Below, piece by piece: positions 31,501 to 53,329 of a stretch of DNA of 58,187 nucleotides. The stretch comes from a virus (taxonomy: Duplodnaviria > Caudoviricetes): IMG/VR virus record IMGVR_UViG_3300021197_000536, positions 1-58,187 of that record. The stretch is one strand, 5' to 3'. Each line of letters opens with the position of its first letter. Position 1 is the first letter of the stretch. The position numbers and the translations under genes are program-made. The notes below the pieces were generated by a model. That model was not told the DNA's origin. It worked only from the letters and a program-made list of their open reading frames with translations, and made no database searches.

Positions 31501-32217
31501 CAAGCACTCAGTGGCTTCCTACGCCCACTTGAGCCTATCGATACAGGTATTGCTATCTTCGCTGGTGTAGACCAAAGCCCTAAGGATACAGCACAAGGTA
31601 ACAAGTTCGTAGGAGATTCCCTGCGATACCTTGACACAACTGCTAACTTCCTGTTGGGCAAAGGGGATGCTCCTGTTAAGCAAGGTGGTGCTACCGGTGA
31701 TAAGGCTCAGCAGTCCACTAAGAACCTAGGTGTACGTACACAGAACCTGACTGAAACTCAGCGTGTTATGAATATGCTAGGTCTTGACCAGTGGAAGCTT
31801 AACTCAGGCTTGTCTAAGGACAAGAAGCTTATGATACCTGAGGCTGTCAACGAGTACCAGCGTCAAGTATACGCGGCTATAGAGGACTGGTCAGCTACTA
31901 AGATGGCGAATGAGTCTTTCCGTAACTCGGATACCAAGACACAGCGCATGTTGTGGGACGACAAGATCAAGGAAGTAACCCAGACTGCTAAGTTTATGTT
32001 GGTTGTGGACTATGATGGCCCCCAGAGTACGCTACGGGACCAGTACGACATCATGACTAAGTTCAGTGTTGGGGATGTAGAGTCCGCTATGACTGAGTTA
32101 GAGTTCGATAAGACTATCGGAGAGCTCAGTGAGGTAGAGATAACTAGCCTTAGAACCCAGCTTGAGCTAACCGGCTACGTTGACCGGATGAGTGTAGACC
32201 AGAAAGTCTACGATTAA
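28594..32217 (+). CDS. large internal virion/ejection protein (gp16-like position)
   Basis: 1207 aa, last late gene; DPVNVVSMGLG, IPFGRFFNN. Confidence 0.75.
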   Translation: MSGIPDWAKPVELLEDDQERINRLASPTATPTSDLEIPEWAQPVQQREAPEASPTPTSSDVPEWARPIDEGRTPTRTEETPPEGLVGLPKGVEAFTYSENDLSDRPELYNPIYEYVEDRYGIQAVKGKAREDIVDTFLNNRRGNAGGNSVRVISEADYLMDVKDDPTRLLKAGKAYAIFEGMENITGDNVSWGEFGEAIKDYTSSVVLDPVNVVSMGLGKVVGGTTIRASSKAVEKIAQREVSRMLMKGASREVALKAGTEVLRKSATQAAVQGASEVAEFSAKMAANKGMQRVMTNAGLKEVAATTIADAAINSGTEFLYQRSLVDTNVQDEISKSAVGIAALSAIAMGGVQAGLVARRGTSGTALLSETVEKADPKQIAKDLQASIKDWASSLQDDVAGETDWLTKVKNGEELTDGDTDFFIDLLLGRNDAEGNVQLKGLAQHMQEGGYFYTKRSEDDKMSNWLADFMKEELDQSDIDGILSAVSDAVGVKVKGKVTPEAFGNAFANKMNASARSMNSVMQVAKRLDVSVADLDVDKFFDEAMGLNLIDDIKLSKDRYSGKGVFTANLTETQNKFIRTLVSHPSTSALNVLGYGAAAGLDISTDLTMALYKGTRGTFKSVLGYADSGAKELYVAKQLLLASKDRVKFALDPDMTYAAYKSALLQNTGALDKLNRTLSGGVDISNSVEQMSRLGGRAGLVQDKADTVLGHVQSATFVHAQDAFTKSQEYVGQMNKLLRTKFGKSWNEFYTDPNAVKIMATKEYKQLEMDAVTATLANTFSKSYKDSTKLGELAGFVEDARNIPGLGFMIPFGRFFNNTIDFGIKNTPLLNIAAKKSGKYADMGYDELMARGAVVTGLVWSMAQDEDENRRMGLGLYDKVVDGQVVSQQYDYPISLFKATARVISYKMAGEELPPEIITQIGKDFGIGGLTRNLNKTGAEFADFGAALLAGEMEGILAEGQTISSDITAQALSGFLRPLEPIDTGIAIFAGVDQSPKDTAQGNKFVGDSLRYLDTTANFLLGKGDAPVKQGGATGDKAQQSTKNLGVRTQNLTETQRVMNMLGLDQWKLNSGLSKDKKLMIPEAVNEYQRQVYAAIEDWSATKMANESFRNSDTKTQRMLWDDKIKEVTQTAKFMLVVDYDGPQSTLRDQYDIMTKFSVGDVESAMTELEFDKTIGELSEVEITSLRTQLELTGYVDRMSVDQKVYD

Positions 32218-32223
32218 ACAAAG

Positions 32224-32260
32224 AAAAACCCCCCTCAAGGCTTTTACACCAAGAGGGGGG
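32224..32260 (-). terminator. terminator at convergence of the two arms
   Basis: CCCCCCTC...GAGGGGGG stem with A-tract on + (U-tract on -). Confidence 0.75.
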
Positions 32261-32288
32261 CTGCTAGTCATAGTAGTAGTAGTTAGTC

Positions 32289-51470: not shown

Positions 51471-52445
51471 TTATGTGTAGTATTGATAGTTTATGCCACC
51501 TCGATAGTAGTCGATATCGCTGTAGCCCTCGCCTATTTCTTCGATTAGATCTTCGAGAGACAAGCCGTAGTCGTGTAGCATTTGAGCTATTGCCGTAGGT
51601 CGGTCAGCGACCAACCGTTCGATAGAAGCCAGTGCTGCCTCTTCCTCCTCATCCTCCGAGGGGTTAGAGTAGGAGCCCCACTGAGAATAGTTAAGTGTCT
51701 CAAGGTGGGTAGGGTCCCGAACTATCGCTAAGGCCTCCCAGCGAGCCTCTATGAGCCTCTCAAGCAGTATCTGAGCGTAGTGTAGGTCTTGAGATTCTCT
51801 TTTGGTGTGCTGGTCATAGTAGCCCACACTGATATTAGTGCATTCAGGTATAATCCCAGCGTACTCAACACTGTCAGTGTAGGTTCCCGTTGTGTCAGCC
51901 TTGAGAGGTAGGTCAAGGGCAACCGCCAGGCTTGATGCGAACTCGTCACTTGCTGTCCTGCGGCCACCTTGGTGTGTTATGATGCTTCCGGTACCGAACC
52001 TATCGAACGATATGACTGCATCGATCTCGTTAAGCCACGCAGGTCTATCTGCGACCAAGGCGGTGCTGCCGATACCTCCGATTTCCTCAGCTGCATGGGC
52101 TACATAGACCCCATCGACACCAGCTTCGATCATGCCAAGCATAAGCCACAACCCTGTAGTGCAATCAGCACCTAGGCAGCTACCTGTAGTTGTTGTTACA
52201 ATGTCTCCTTCTACTTGAAGTGTTTGAAAACCCTGCATACTGTGAACTGTATCAGTATGGGCCGTGAAGGCGATGTTAGGTCGATTGCCAATCACCTTCA
52301 CGTAGTTCCCATGCTCATCAGGTTCACCAAATACAGGCTCTAAGTACTTCTTACAGAACATACTCTCTGTATGGCTGTAAGCTGGCCTCATCCATTGAAG
52401 CAAATTCACCAATAAGTGTTTAGTAACCTTGCTACGTTTAGTCAT
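51471..52445 (-). CDS. M28/M20-family zinc peptidase-like protein
   Basis: AHTDTV, LGADCTTG, AEEIG, SFDR, YTDS, GYYDQHT. Confidence 0.85.
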   Translation of the reverse strand: MTKRSKVTKHLLVNLLQWMRPAYSHTESMFCKKYLEPVFGEPDEHGNYVKVIGNRPNIAFTAHTDTVHSMQGFQTLQVEGDIVTTTTGSCLGADCTTGLWLMLGMIEAGVDGVYVAHAAEEIGGIGSTALVADRPAWLNEIDAVISFDRFGTGSIITHQGGRRTASDEFASSLAVALDLPLKADTTGTYTDSVEYAGIIPECTNISVGYYDQHTKRESQDLHYAQILLERLIEARWEALAIVRDPTHLETLNYSQWGSYSNPSEDEEEEAALASIERLVADRPTAIAQMLHDYGLSLEDLIEEIGEGYSDIDYYRGGINYQYYT

Positions 52446-53007
52446 GTTTGTTTCCTTTTGACATGTTCTCTTTTGCTTCGAGAACTCTTAGGTTCCAAGG
52501 GACGTGTAACCCGCAGACGTTCTCACCTCTGAGTGGCACGATGTGATCGACGTGATGTTCAATACCAGTTTCAAGTGTTATGTTCTTACAGGTTATGTAG
52601 ATCCCCTTCATCTGATCTACCTGTGATTTGGTTAACCAACTCGGTGTAGCCTGTAACCTACTAGCTCGGTACACCGCATTTCTAGCGACCGCCTTAGCCA
52701 CAAAGTCAGGGTCAGCCTCCTTCAGGACTGCGTATGGTTTGTCATAGTACCTAGCCTTGTGGTAAGCCTTAGCCCTGTCAGTGTTGTCAGCATACCACTG
52801 TTTAGACTGAGCCCTGTGAGTATCAGCGTTATTTCGGCGGTACTCCTTCATCTTACTCAAGAGACGGTCACGATTGGCAGACCTCCACGCATCGTCACAC
52901 TGCTTCTTACAGACCTTGCAGGTAGATCGCAGACCATCGGCCTTACTCTTGTCCTTATGGAACATAGAGAGCGGGTGTGTTGTTCTACACTTATTGCACG
53001 TTTTCAT
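52438..53007 (-). CDS. HNH homing endonuclease with N-terminal Zn ribbon
   Basis: KTCNKC...CKVC; HHVDHIVPL...GLHVPWNL...EN..KGN. Confidence 0.92.
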   Translation of the reverse strand: MKTCNKCRTTHPLSMFHKDKSKADGLRSTCKVCKKQCDDAWRSANRDRLLSKMKEYRRNNADTHRAQSKQWYADNTDRAKAYHKARYYDKPYAVLKEADPDFVAKAVARNAVYRASRLQATPSWLTKSQVDQMKGIYITCKNITLETGIEHHVDHIVPLRGENVCGLHVPWNLRVLEAKENMSKGNKHD

Positions 53008-53024
53008 GGGGTGTCCTTTAAACT

Positions 53025-53136
53025 GAAAAGGGGCTACACAAGTCCGATACTGCCCGAAGGTGCGCGACTTGTATAACCCCTAGTATAGGCGACAAATAAG
53101 ACCTCGATACTTCCTAGTAAACTAGGTGCGCAGATC
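53025..53136 (-). ncRNA. structured leader with two hairpins sharing an identical internal loop
   Basis: GCGCA-[stem-loop]-(A/C)AGUAUCG twice; second hairpin has cUUCGg and is followed by UUUU. Confidence 0.6.
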
Positions 53137-53156
53137 ATACTTGAAGCTATCCTATA

Positions 53157-53185
53157 AGTATACTATAAGTATTACTTAATGTCAA
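53157..53185 (-). promoter_or_regulatory. sigma70-type promoter for the HNH gene
   Basis: TTGACA-17 bp-TATACT on -. Confidence 0.75.
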
Positions 53186-53329
53186 GTAATACCTCCTCTG
53201 AGGAGGAGAAGGAGAATACTTTAAGTATACTCTAAGTACCCTTATCTCTCTCTCTTGACAGTTATACCATACTAGCAAGTCAAAGTATATGTGACACGTT
53301 GTCGCACCCCATAAGGGTGTTCACATCAG

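What the first reader, a model, noticed from the sequence alone, without database searches (positions are those of the whole stretch)
53025..53150. Tandem RNA motif with identical internal loops in the HNH leader
Seen on the - strand after the promoter: GAUCU-GCGCA-CCUAG(uuua)CUAGG-AAGUAUCG-AGGUC, then GGGGUUAUACAAGUC-GCGCA-CC(UUCG)GG-CAGUAUCG-GACUUGUGUAGCCCC-UUUU. The stems differ completely while the loop GCGCA/(A,C)AGUAUCG is kept, and G-U pairs work only on this strand. The second hairpin doubles as a terminator before the RBS. Inference: an undescribed protein- or ligand-binding attenuator, or a ~125-nt sRNA partner of the nuclease.
Basis: partly seen in the sequence, partly recalled or inferred. 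Interest (0 to 1): 0.78.

Follow-up and report, generated by a model that had tools for sequence, protein, structure and literature searches.

The report
Twin-loop RNA leader of mobile nuclease
Two neighbouring RNA hairpins that carry the same internal loop sit between a promoter and a homing-nuclease gene inside a 904-base mobile insert of a marine phage, and most likely keep that selfish nuclease under tight control.

Summary
On the minus strand, a sigma-70-type promoter (53185-53157) is followed by two 51-nt hairpins, H1 (53143-53093) and H2 (53080-53030). Both have the asymmetric internal loop GCGCA / (A|C)AGUAUCG closed by CC/GG, on unrelated stems. Then come UUUU, a ribosome-binding site and the nuclease ORF.

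New context: all of this lies in a 904-nt insert (52403-53306). The insert is absent from 13 of 13 related phage loci and from cassette-free contigs in three public runs. It is present at about 90% identity at the same site in a different phage (L159). It is therefore a mobile, free-standing HNH-type nuclease cassette with its own promoter and leader.

Between the two copies the leader differs only in H1's apical loop, the linker and the 5' end. Stems and loops are unchanged, so there is no covariation.

No Rfam family matches. A covariance model and pattern scans found no further copy, including 0 of 92 loci with more distant relatives of the nuclease.

Best reading (about 0.4): a cassette-borne cis-regulatory leader, with H2 as a leaky terminator and the twin loops as sites for one protein. 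Main rival: T7-style RNase III processing signals. Interest is moderate.

The parts
52403..53306 (-). 904-nt mobile cassette. It holds the 5' non-coding part, the promoter, the twin hairpins, the nuclease ORF and a replacement 5' end for the peptidase gene.
   Evidence: Contigs of runs X4, X5 and X20 join 52402 to 53307 with one other letter between. 13 of 13 related loci have the two flanking genes abutting. L159 carries the same insert at about 90% identity in another phage.
53157..53185 (-). Sigma-70-type promoter match, TTGACA-17-TATACT. A start near 53150 is inferred.
   Evidence: 11 of 12. L159 keeps it as TTGACT-17-TATACT.
53093..53143 (-). Hairpin H1 (51 nt). Outer stem of 6+5 bp with a U.U mismatch, internal loop GCGCA (53131-53127) / AAGUAUCG (53112-53105), inner stem CCUAG/CUAGG, apical loop UUUA.
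   Evidence: pair probabilities 0.88-1.0. Model score 76.1 bits. In L159 only the apical loop differs, UUUA to GUGA.
53081..53092 (-). 12-nt linker between the hairpins, UCGCCUAUACUA. Its last A can pair with U53029.
   Evidence: It holds 2 of the 5 leader differences from L159: one deletion and one C>T.
53030..53080 (-). Hairpin H2 (51 nt). 15-bp outer stem with a GGGG/CCCC base, internal loop GCGCA (53065-53061) / CAGUAUCG (53052-53045), then CC-UUCG-GG.
   Evidence: (-28.0 kcal/mol, z -4.8). Model score 65.4 bits. Identical in L159.
53026..53029 (-). U run directly after H2, followed by CAGUUU. Candidate terminator tail.
   Evidence: Not called by the consensus scan.
53014..53019 (-). Ribosome-binding site AAAGGA, 6 nt before the ATG at 53007. 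It lies outside H2.
   Evidence: Inside the 91-nt run without differences from L159.
52438..53007 (-). 189-aa HNH-type (beta-beta-alpha-Me) nuclease ORF with an N-terminal Cys4 ribbon.
   Evidence: phrog_1035 'endonuclease VII' E 2.5e-27, and phrogs named HNH endonuclease. tblastn hits annotated as HNH, homing endonuclease or endonuclease VII. Invariant H-V-D-H ... N ... N columns in 36 relatives. Pfam and fold searches are weak.
51471..52445 (-). M28-type peptidase gene, the gene the cassette sits in. Its first 14 codons (52445-52404) belong to the cassette, and its ATG overlaps the end of the nuclease ORF.
   Evidence: phrog_4191 E 3.3e-76..
53192..53212 (-). Small hairpin just upstream of the promoter, inside the cassette. 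Terminator-like by the scan.
53330..54778 (-). Upstream 482-aa gene of no known family. In relatives it directly abuts the peptidase gene.
   Evidence: no family; 40% and 34% identity to the neighbours in L134 and L135.

Best explanation
The two hairpins are the cis-acting 5' leader of a mobile, free-standing HNH-type nuclease cassette. The cassette sits in the first codons of a phage peptidase gene.

**Proposed working.**
- Host RNA polymerase starts at the cassette's own promoter, near 53150, or reads in from the operon upstream, and transcribes H1 and then H2.
- H2 has a very stable stem with a G+C-rich base followed by UUUU, 22 nt before the start codon. It acts as a leaky intrinsic terminator or roadblock.
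- Most transcripts therefore end as a leader RNA of about 125 nt, and only read-through reaches the nuclease ORF and the re-started peptidase ORF.
- The identical internal loop on both hairpins is the recognition site for one factor that binds twice or as a dimer. This could be a host RNA-binding or RNA-processing protein, or the nuclease itself. The factor sets how much message gets through or survives.

**Shown.** The structure, its strand, the promoter match, membership in a mobile insert, and strict conservation in a second copy.

**Inferred.** Transcription start, termination, protein binding, and the direction of regulation.
For: **Structure and promoter.**

**The loops are read as folded RNA.** The pattern occurs only twice in the record, against an expectation of 0.12. 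The two loop halves are 10 and 4 nt apart in the DNA of H1 and H2, so only folding brings them into the same arrangement.

**The whole unit is one insert.**
- It is absent from 13 of 13 related loci. Neighbour homology was checked for 2 of them.
- It is absent from cassette-free contigs in 3 runs from 3 studies.
- It is present in L159 in another phage, whose peptidase DNA is only 69% identical.

**Conservation against L159.**
- Leader: 4 mismatches and 1 gap in 125 columns (96%). Ribosome-binding-site stretch: 100%. Nuclease ORF: 90.2%, with 27 of 189 residues changed and 27 non-synonymous against 20 synonymous codon differences. Cassette 5' part: 84%.
- All 5 leader differences fall in the 31 positions outside the stems and internal loops. 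By chance this is about 0.001 for 5 independent events, or 0.015 counted as 3 events.
- The longest run without a difference in the whole 1.2-kb alignment is 53087-52997, which covers H2, the U run, the ribosome-binding site and the start.

**Precedent.** Free-standing homing-nuclease genes of T4-type phages are held down by terminators, processing sites and hairpins next to the ribosome-binding site. One case is a very stable hairpin just upstream of an unsequestered site in phage 25 (PMC2988022, passages read).
Against: - There is no direct evidence of transcription, termination or binding.
- H2 is an atypical terminator. It is 51 nt long with a large internal loop and only four U in a row, and the consensus scan did not list it.
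- H1 shares the loop but has no terminator features, so the loop's role is not termination as such.
- A strong terminator would also starve the peptidase gene, which restarts inside the cassette.
- No covariation is available, because the stems are identical in the only second copy. A second difference-free run of 89 nt (52521-52433) shows that identity along the cassette is patchy, so recombination could explain part of the leader's conservation.
- The motif was found nowhere else: 0 of 92 loci with distant relatives of the nuclease, 0 of 13 related phage loci and 0 of 5 whole related records. Generality is therefore unproven.
Confidence: 0.4

Rival explanations
1. RNase III-type processing signals, as in the early region of phage T7. 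Each hairpin would be an irregular double-stranded substrate of about two helical turns. Its asymmetric internal loop would direct a single cut, separating upstream message from the nuclease message and setting the stability or translation of the latter.
For: - T7 R1.1 is a 60-nt hairpin with an asymmetric 4/5 internal loop, cut by RNase III (PMC6121014, passages read).
- Folding five early intergenic stretches of T7 fetched here shows hairpins that share the sequence around the internal loop (CUCAAGGU ... CCUUUAUGAU) while other parts vary. They lie shortly before ribosome-binding sites. The site names and places are recalled, because the record does not annotate them.
- The same pattern is seen here: a conserved loop plus the first two pairs of the upper stem, and variable stems.
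- H1 and H2 have the same overall length, 51 nt with 17 helical steps each, although the loop sits 3 steps apart. This fits a length-measuring enzyme.
Against: - The upper stem is only 2 bp in H2 and 5 bp in H1, far shorter than in the T7 sites. A cut inside the loop would have almost no helix on one side.
- The motif is not used at any other intergenic site of this phage, unlike in T7.
- An alphaproteobacterial RNase III needed longer duplexes than the E. coli enzyme, and the nearest cultured phages infect Rhodobacteraceae.
- There is no sequence likeness to the T7 sites.
Confidence: 0.25
2. A stand-alone small RNA of about 125 nt, made from the cassette promoter and ended at H2, that acts in trans on host or phage messages or sequesters a protein. 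The nuclease would be made from read-through only.
For: The layout is promoter, 5' hairpin, A/U-rich linker, then a terminal hairpin with a U tail. This is the usual layout of bacterial sRNAs (the generalisation is from textbook knowledge). The leader is better conserved than the protein it precedes.
Against: - No outstanding complementarity exists within the phage: the longest match is 13 nt, reached by 10 of 50 shuffles.
- The conserved letters lie in internal loops, not in an open seed region.
- The host genome is unknown, so host targets could not be tested.
Confidence: 0.1
3. The shared loop has no function of its own. H1 and H2 would be diverged copies of one duplicated terminator or stabiliser hairpin, or chance by-products of recombination at the cassette border.
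For: Only two cassette variants are known, and identity along the cassette is patchy. A 20-nt stretch of H1's 3' half is 70% like the linker plus H2's 5' half, which hints at an old duplication (D3). Many relatives of the nuclease simply have ordinary terminators upstream.
Against: Neutral decay after a duplication should erode unpaired loops at least as fast as stems. Here 16 of 17 loop and closing letters are kept while the stems keep no alignable similarity. Every difference from L159 avoids the loops and stems.
Confidence: 0.12
4. A small-molecule riboswitch with two like aptamers, the second embedded in the terminator stem.
For: Tandem like domains and terminator-embedded aptamers exist among riboswitches (recalled, not from a call). 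The conserved internal loops are flanked by helices.
Against: - There is no alternative fold. H2 forms with probability about 1.0 and is 22 kcal/mol better than any fold without it.
- No Rfam match, even at E up to 10.
- A metabolite sensor before a selfish nuclease has no evident rationale.
- The distribution is tiny.
Confidence: 0.04
5. A put-like antiterminator RNA. The two promoter-proximal hairpins would bind the transcribing polymerase and make it read through downstream terminators, so that the insert is not polar on the operon.
For: Two hairpins lie directly after a promoter, inside an insert that interrupts an operon. The HK022 put precedent is recalled, not from a call.
Against: The second hairpin itself looks like a terminator. 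There is no likeness to a described family. Nothing here tests the idea.
Confidence: 0.05

Closest known systems
Regulatory terminators and hairpins of free-standing homing-endonuclease genes in T4-type phages (mobE, segB, segF, seg43(25))
   Same: A selfish nuclease gene is inserted between or into phage genes. It has its own or borrowed promoters, with stable RNA hairpins or weak terminators next to its ribosome-binding site that limit expression. In phage 25 a very stable hairpin lies just upstream of a free ribosome-binding site (PMC2988022, passages read).
   Different: Here there are two hairpins with one and the same internal loop. The ribosome-binding site is not sequestered. The cassette brings a host-type promoter and a replacement 5' end for the interrupted gene. 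The phage is a marine HMO-2011/CRP-type phage, and there is no sequence relation to the T4 cases.
RNase III processing signals of phage T7 early RNA (R0.3, R0.5, R1, R1.1, R1.3)
   Same: Hairpins of 50-60 nt with an asymmetric internal loop. The loop-flanking sequence is shared between copies in one genome. They lie shortly before ribosome-binding sites in host-polymerase transcripts.
   Different: The loop is 5/8 rather than 4/5 and lies close to the tip (upper stem of 2 or 5 bp). There are only two copies, both in one mobile insert. No sequence likeness was found, and cleavage is untested.
Two-hairpin leader motifs read by a dimer or a ligand (ANTAR targets, guanidine-II mini-ykkC, NAD+-I nadA, thrS operator)
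   Same: Two neighbouring hairpins with variable stems and the same conserved unpaired letters, placed in a leader before a terminator or ribosome-binding site (recalled, not from a call).
   Different: In those motifs the conserved letters are mostly in terminal loops or in larger bulged domains. Here the terminal loops vary (UUUA, GUGA, UUCG) and the internal loop is conserved. The Rfam scans found no likeness to any family held there.

Membership tests
Any Rfam 15 family | Match to a family covariance model | tested here: not met
   0 matches at gathering score over the whole window. Only 2 chance-level rows (E 7.6 and 8), elsewhere in the 451-nt stretch. 0 matches at E up to 10 on the 136 nt.
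Intrinsic (Rho-independent) terminator | Stable G+C-rich stem-loop | tested here: met
   H2: -28.0 kcal/mol, z -4.8, GGGG/CCCC base, outer pairs with probability about 1.0. H1 is weak (-13.6 kcal/mol).
Intrinsic (Rho-independent) terminator | U-rich tract directly after the stem, and compact hairpin geometry | tested here: inconclusive
   H2 is followed by UUUU and then CAGUUU. The hairpin is 51 nt with a 5/8 internal loop, and the consensus scan, which requires a 3-8-nt loop, did not list it.
Intrinsic (Rho-independent) terminator | RNA 3' ends at the U tract | not testable with these tools
   Only assembled contigs were available, and they cannot show RNA ends.
T7-type RNase III processing signal | Irregular hairpin of about two helical turns with an asymmetric internal loop | tested here: met
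   Both hairpins are 51 nt with 17 helical steps plus a 5/8 loop. Compare R1.1: 60 nt with a 4/5 loop.
T7-type RNase III processing signal | Substantial helix on both sides of the loop (upper stem of about 9-10 bp in the T7 sites) | tested here: not met
   Upper stems are 5 bp (H1) and 2 bp (H2). T7 upper stems are 9-13 bp in the folds.
T7-type RNase III processing signal | Cleavage by RNase III | not testable with these tools
   Needs an enzyme assay or end mapping in rnc+ and rnc- hosts.
Free-standing HNH homing-endonuclease cassette | ORF of the HNH / beta-beta-alpha-Me nuclease superfamily | tested here: inconclusive
   For: phrog_1035 at E 2.5e-27, plus phrogs named HNH endonuclease; annotated HNH, homing endonuclease and endonuclease VII hits; invariant H152-V-D-H155, N172 and N181 in 36 relatives. 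Weak: no Pfam hit for the protein; Pfam HNH in 3 of 36 relatives, best E 0.0075; no PDB sequence hit; Foldseek gave nothing at E up to 0.001; VIA-align gave Hpy99I at Z 5.5 (38 residues aligned, rmsd 1.6) and PacI at Z 4.5 (84 aligned, rmsd 4.2), both in the noise range.
Free-standing HNH homing-endonuclease cassette | Presence/absence polymorphism at one fixed site among close genomes | tested here: met
   Cassette-free joints 52402/53307 in contigs of X4, X5 and X20. 13 of 13 related loci lack it.
Free-standing HNH homing-endonuclease cassette | Same element at the homologous site of a different genome | tested here: met
   In L159 the cassette is about 90% identical while the flanking peptidase DNA is 69% identical. 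The upstream flank reads like codons 6-9 of the L134 peptidase gene.
Free-standing HNH homing-endonuclease cassette | Site-specific cutting of the empty allele, and homing | not testable with these tools
   Needs a cleavage assay or co-infection crosses.
Riboswitch / switchable attenuator | Mutually exclusive terminator and anti-terminator folds | tested here: not met
   The best fold without H2's 3' strand is -24.1 kcal/mol, against -46.1 with it. H2 pairs have probability 0.97-1.0.

The most novel reading that the evidence does not exclude
The twin loop is a new, compact RNA-protein recognition element carried by a selfish gene. The HNH-type nuclease, or a dimeric host protein, binds the identical internal loops of both hairpins and thereby feeds back on termination or stability of its own message. 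This would be the first RNA-level autoregulatory operator of a free-standing homing endonuclease, travelling with the cassette from phage to phage.
Probability: 0.15. Interest if true: 0.65.

Novelty: new variant of a known kind. Interest (0 to 1): 0.42.

Why it matters
Homing-nuclease cassettes must stay nearly harmless to the phage that carries them, yet how they are regulated is known for only a few T4-type cases. This cassette, from an abundant marine phage group, brings a complete control unit: a promoter, two hairpins with one shared internal loop, and a replacement start for the gene it interrupts.

If the loop proves to be a protein-binding or processing site, it would add a small, portable RNA control module. 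It would also show that mobile nuclease genes carry their regulation with them.

The population data, with full and empty alleles and a second phage host, also make this a clean natural example of homing in uncultured marine phages.

Tried and rejected
**Exact-pattern scans**
- Viral contigs, single motif (112 and 104 stretches).
- Viral contigs, tandem motif: 7 stretches, all chance by my reading of the sequences printed.
- Metagenome contigs, tandem motif: 57 stretches; I judged only L159 real from the listing.
- Bacterial and archaeal genomes, tandem motif: 39 stretches, none with more than 2 flanking pairs.
- Across 175 distinct matched sequences held, only the window's own copies and L159 have 5 or more pairs flanking the motif.

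**DNA searches of the phage collection**
- No match, near or distant.

**Covariance model R1**
- It rests on only two distinct hairpins plus one loop variant.
- It found nothing beyond the window and L159.

**Upstream regions of nuclease relatives**
- 11 relatives and 80 were inspected.
- 54 of the 80 have under 90 nt of free space upstream. The rest show ordinary terminators or unrelated folds, and none has a twin loop.
- In Shewanella phage SppYZU01 (42% identity) the gene overlaps its upstream neighbour and has no leader.

**Ideas rejected**
- Group I intron: no Rfam match, and the cassette brings its own start codon for the interrupted gene.
- DNA-level operator or cruciform: the spacing of the two loop halves varies, and there are four G.U pairs.

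**Expression evidence**
- No RNA holder is listed for the stretch.
- The run labelled RNA by guess (X7) gave one contig spanning the cassette. This says nothing about transcription.

**Limits of the data**
- 36 variant rows were not shown, so a third variant seen in X4 could not be read.
- The search of earlier findings returned nothing.

Full report
**1. The observation**

Read on the minus strand, a promoter match TTGACA-17-TATACT (53185-53157; 11 of 12) is followed by two hairpins.

- **H1 (53143-53093).** The outer stem is CAAGUA.GAUCU / AGGUC.UAUUUG with one U.U mismatch. The internal loop is GCGCA / AAGUAUCG. The inner stem is CCUAG/CUAGG, capped by UUUA.
- **H2 (53080-53030).** It has a 15-bp outer stem with a GGGG/CCCC base, the internal loop GCGCA / CAGUAUCG, and then CC-UUCG-GG.
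- **Downstream.** UUUU follows, then AAAGGA, then the ATG at 53007.

Both hairpins are 51 nt long. The shared part is GCGCACC ... GG(A|C)AGUAUCG, 16 of 17 letters.

The pattern occurs only at these two places in the 58,187-nt record. The expectation is 0.12, and 0 of 100 shuffles gave two.

The fold is strand-specific:

| Stretch | Minus strand | Plus strand |
|---|---|---|
| 131 nt | -46.1 kcal/mol (z -4.2) | -36.1 (z -3.0) |
| H1 | -13.6 | -6.8 |
| H2 | -28.0 | -22.4 |

Four G.U pairs account for the difference between the strands. In the ensemble, all stem pairs have probability 0.88-1.0, except the two-pair cap of H2.

**2. What surrounds it**

The window is a whole virus record, estimated 80% complete.
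- It encodes terminase, portal, major head protein, DNA polymerase, primase-helicase, ribonucleotide reductase, thymidylate synthase and PhoH.
- Its head protein is 83% identical to that of Roseobacter phage CRP-13 and 71% to that of Puniceispirillum phage HMO-2011. It is therefore a marine phage of that type.

The ORF after the leader (53007-52438, 189 aa) matches phrog_1035 'endonuclease VII' at E 2.5e-27, plus families named HNH endonuclease.
- It finds phage genes annotated as HNH, homing endonuclease or endonuclease VII.
- It keeps an H-V-D-H ... N ... N signature in 36 relatives.
- Pfam, PDB sequence search and fold searches are weak or empty.

I therefore call it HNH-type on profile and motif evidence only.

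Upstream lies a 482-aa gene of no known family. Downstream lies an M28-type peptidase gene (phrog_4191, E 3.3e-76). Its ATG overlaps the end of the nuclease ORF.

**3. The leader belongs to a mobile insert**

- **Relatives lack it.** In 13 of 13 related loci found through the peptidase, the large upstream gene directly abuts or overlaps the peptidase gene, with no nuclease gene and no leader. Homology of the upstream gene was checked for L134 and L135 (40% and 34% identity).
- **Empty alleles exist.** Laying public contigs on 52300-53500 showed contigs in three runs from three studies (X4, X5, X20) that join 52402 to 53307 with a single other letter between. Their flanks are nearly identical to the window. 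This is the empty allele of the same phage. By my reading of the letters (inference), it keeps an open peptidase frame that starts at a TTG overlapping the stop of the upstream gene.
- **Most runs hold only the flank.** In most runs the share of sampled words is 0.11. This fits runs that hold only the flank.
- **A second copy sits in another phage.** A metagenome contig, L159, carries the insert at about 90% identity, while the peptidase DNA that follows is only 69% identical. Its few upstream letters match codons 6-9 of the L134-type peptidase gene. The variant positions in the X7 contig and in some X4 contigs are the same as L159's.

So 52403-53306 is a cassette found at the homologous site, in the first codons of the peptidase gene, in two phage backgrounds and missing from others. 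It carries its own promoter and leader, the nuclease ORF, and 14 replacement codons with a ribosome-binding site. These let the interrupted peptidase gene restart.

This is the signature of a free-standing homing-endonuclease cassette. Homing itself is inferred.

**4. Conservation inside the cassette**

Window against L159:

| Segment | Identity |
|---|---|
| 5' non-coding part | 84% |
| Small hairpin plus promoter | 92% (TTGACA becomes TTGACT; TATACT kept) |
| Leader 53150-53026 | 96% |
| Ribosome-binding-site stretch | 100% |
| Nuclease ORF | 90.2% (27 of 189 residues differ; 27 non-synonymous and 20 synonymous codon differences) |

The five leader differences are at 53147 (before H1), at 53121 and 53119 (H1 apical loop, UUUA to GUGA), and at 53089/53088 (linker).
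- None touches a stem or an internal loop.
- By chance this is about 0.001, or 0.015 if neighbouring changes count as one event.
- The longest difference-free run of the whole alignment is 53087-52997, which covers H2 through the start codon.

There are two caveats. A second run of 89 nt (52521-52433) shows that identity is patchy, so recombination may contribute. And because no stem letter changed, there is no covariation.

The best argument for structure-plus-loop selection remains the comparison of H1 with H2 themselves: unrelated stems around the same loop.

**5. Search for relatives of the motif**

- **Rfam.** No match at gathering score. Nothing at E up to 10 on the 136-nt stretch.
- **Pattern scans.** Viral, metagenome and genome collections gave only chance or coding matches apart from L159.
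- **Covariance model.** A model built from the hairpins scores 76 and 65 bits on H1 and H2. It finds nothing else in the window, in five whole related phage records, in 11+1 loci with relatives of the nuclease or 13 peptidase loci, or in 80 further loci with nuclease relatives at 32-42% identity.
- **Upstream regions.** Inspection of those upstream regions shows no comparable twin-loop leader.

The motif is so far confined to this cassette lineage. Nuclease relatives at 85%, 79% and 77% identity exist on short contigs, but their DNA could not be fetched.

**6. How it most likely works**

- **RNA, not DNA.** The two loop halves lie 10 and 4 nt apart in the DNA of H1 and H2 and become equivalent only on folding. 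The stems need G.U pairs. Recognition is therefore at the RNA level.
- **A static structure.** Without H2's 3' strand the best fold is 22 kcal/mol worse. A ligand-switched attenuator is therefore unlikely.
- **No trans target within the phage.** The longest complementarity is 13 nt, which is ordinary.
- **What fits.** A fixed leader in which H2, with its G+C-rich base and U run 22 nt before the ATG, stops or slows most transcripts. The common loop on both hairpins would serve as a double site for one factor.

This matches what is known of free-standing homing-nuclease genes in T4-type phages. These are throttled by weak terminators, RNase E sites and hairpins next to the ribosome-binding site (PMC2988022, passages read). 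I give this reading about 0.4.

The main rival, at about 0.25, is a pair of RNase III signals of the T7 kind.
- R1.1 is a 60-nt hairpin with an asymmetric 4/5 loop (PMC6121014, passages read).
- The T7 early intergenic hairpins that I folded share their loop-flanking sequence much as H1 and H2 do. The site names are recalled.
- Against it, the upper stems here are very short (2 and 5 bp), and no such hairpin occurs elsewhere in this phage.

Lesser rivals are a trans-acting sRNA, a functionless relic of a duplication, a riboswitch, and a put-like antiterminator.

**7. Verdict**

The feature is real, strand-specific and conserved. It belongs to a well-delimited mobile nuclease cassette. Its kind, a structured control leader of a free-standing homing-nuclease gene, is known. 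The twin internal loop is a new variant with no described family.

The evidence base is thin: two sequence variants, no covariation and no expression data. The function of the loop is therefore open. Interest is moderate.

Noticed in passing
window 52403-53306, with the junction 52402/53307: Full and empty alleles of the nuclease cassette co-occur in public marine runs. The empty allele is the commoner by the word shares. This is a natural homing polymorphism in an HMO-2011/CRP-type phage.
   Followed up: yes
window 53307-53334 and 52403-52445: The letters just upstream of the cassette look like a decayed copy of the peptidase gene's original first codons. The cassette's 3' end supplies 14 new codons (MTKRSKVTKHLLVN) that resemble the native start of relatives (MAVTKHKLVAM in L134). 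The leftover upstream frame would give a peptide of about 17 aa. This is my reading of the letters and is not tested.
   Followed up: partly
window 53290-53306 (- strand), and the same place in L159: At the cassette's 5' edge lies a palindrome, TGTGACA-ACG-TGTCACA. It is perfect in L159 and has one mismatch in the window. It could be a protein site or part of the nuclease's target. Not examined.
   Followed up: no
window 53187-53202 and 53339-53354: A 16-nt direct repeat (88% identity). The end of the 482-aa gene (CTCAGAGGAGGGCTTA on the minus strand) recurs inside the cassette, just before the promoter, where it forms the small hairpin at 53192-53212. It may be a relic of an earlier insertion context.
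   Followed up: no
window 53149-53171 and 53216-53238: The -10 region of the cassette promoter is duplicated 67 nt upstream (23 nt, 87% identity) without a matching -35 element.
   Followed up: no
window 52433-52521: An 89-nt run identical between the window and L159. It covers the catalytic C-terminus of the nuclease, the peptidase ribosome-binding site and the overlapping stop and start. It is the second longest difference-free run of the alignment.
   Followed up: partly
window 53330-54778 (-): The 482-aa protein has no Pfam or PHROG family, yet it is conserved next to the peptidase gene in all 13 related loci. Its C-terminal part is rich in Cys pairs.
   Followed up: no
window 32204-32267: A strong hairpin with U/A runs on both sides lies between the converging structural (+) and replication (-) gene blocks. 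It is a likely two-way terminator.
   Followed up: no
L337 (phage T7 850-6476): Five early intergenic hairpins of T7 share CUCAAGGU ... CCUUUAUGAU around their internal loops, while their lower stems and tips differ. This is a useful yardstick for paralogous hairpins that share a loop.
   Followed up: partly
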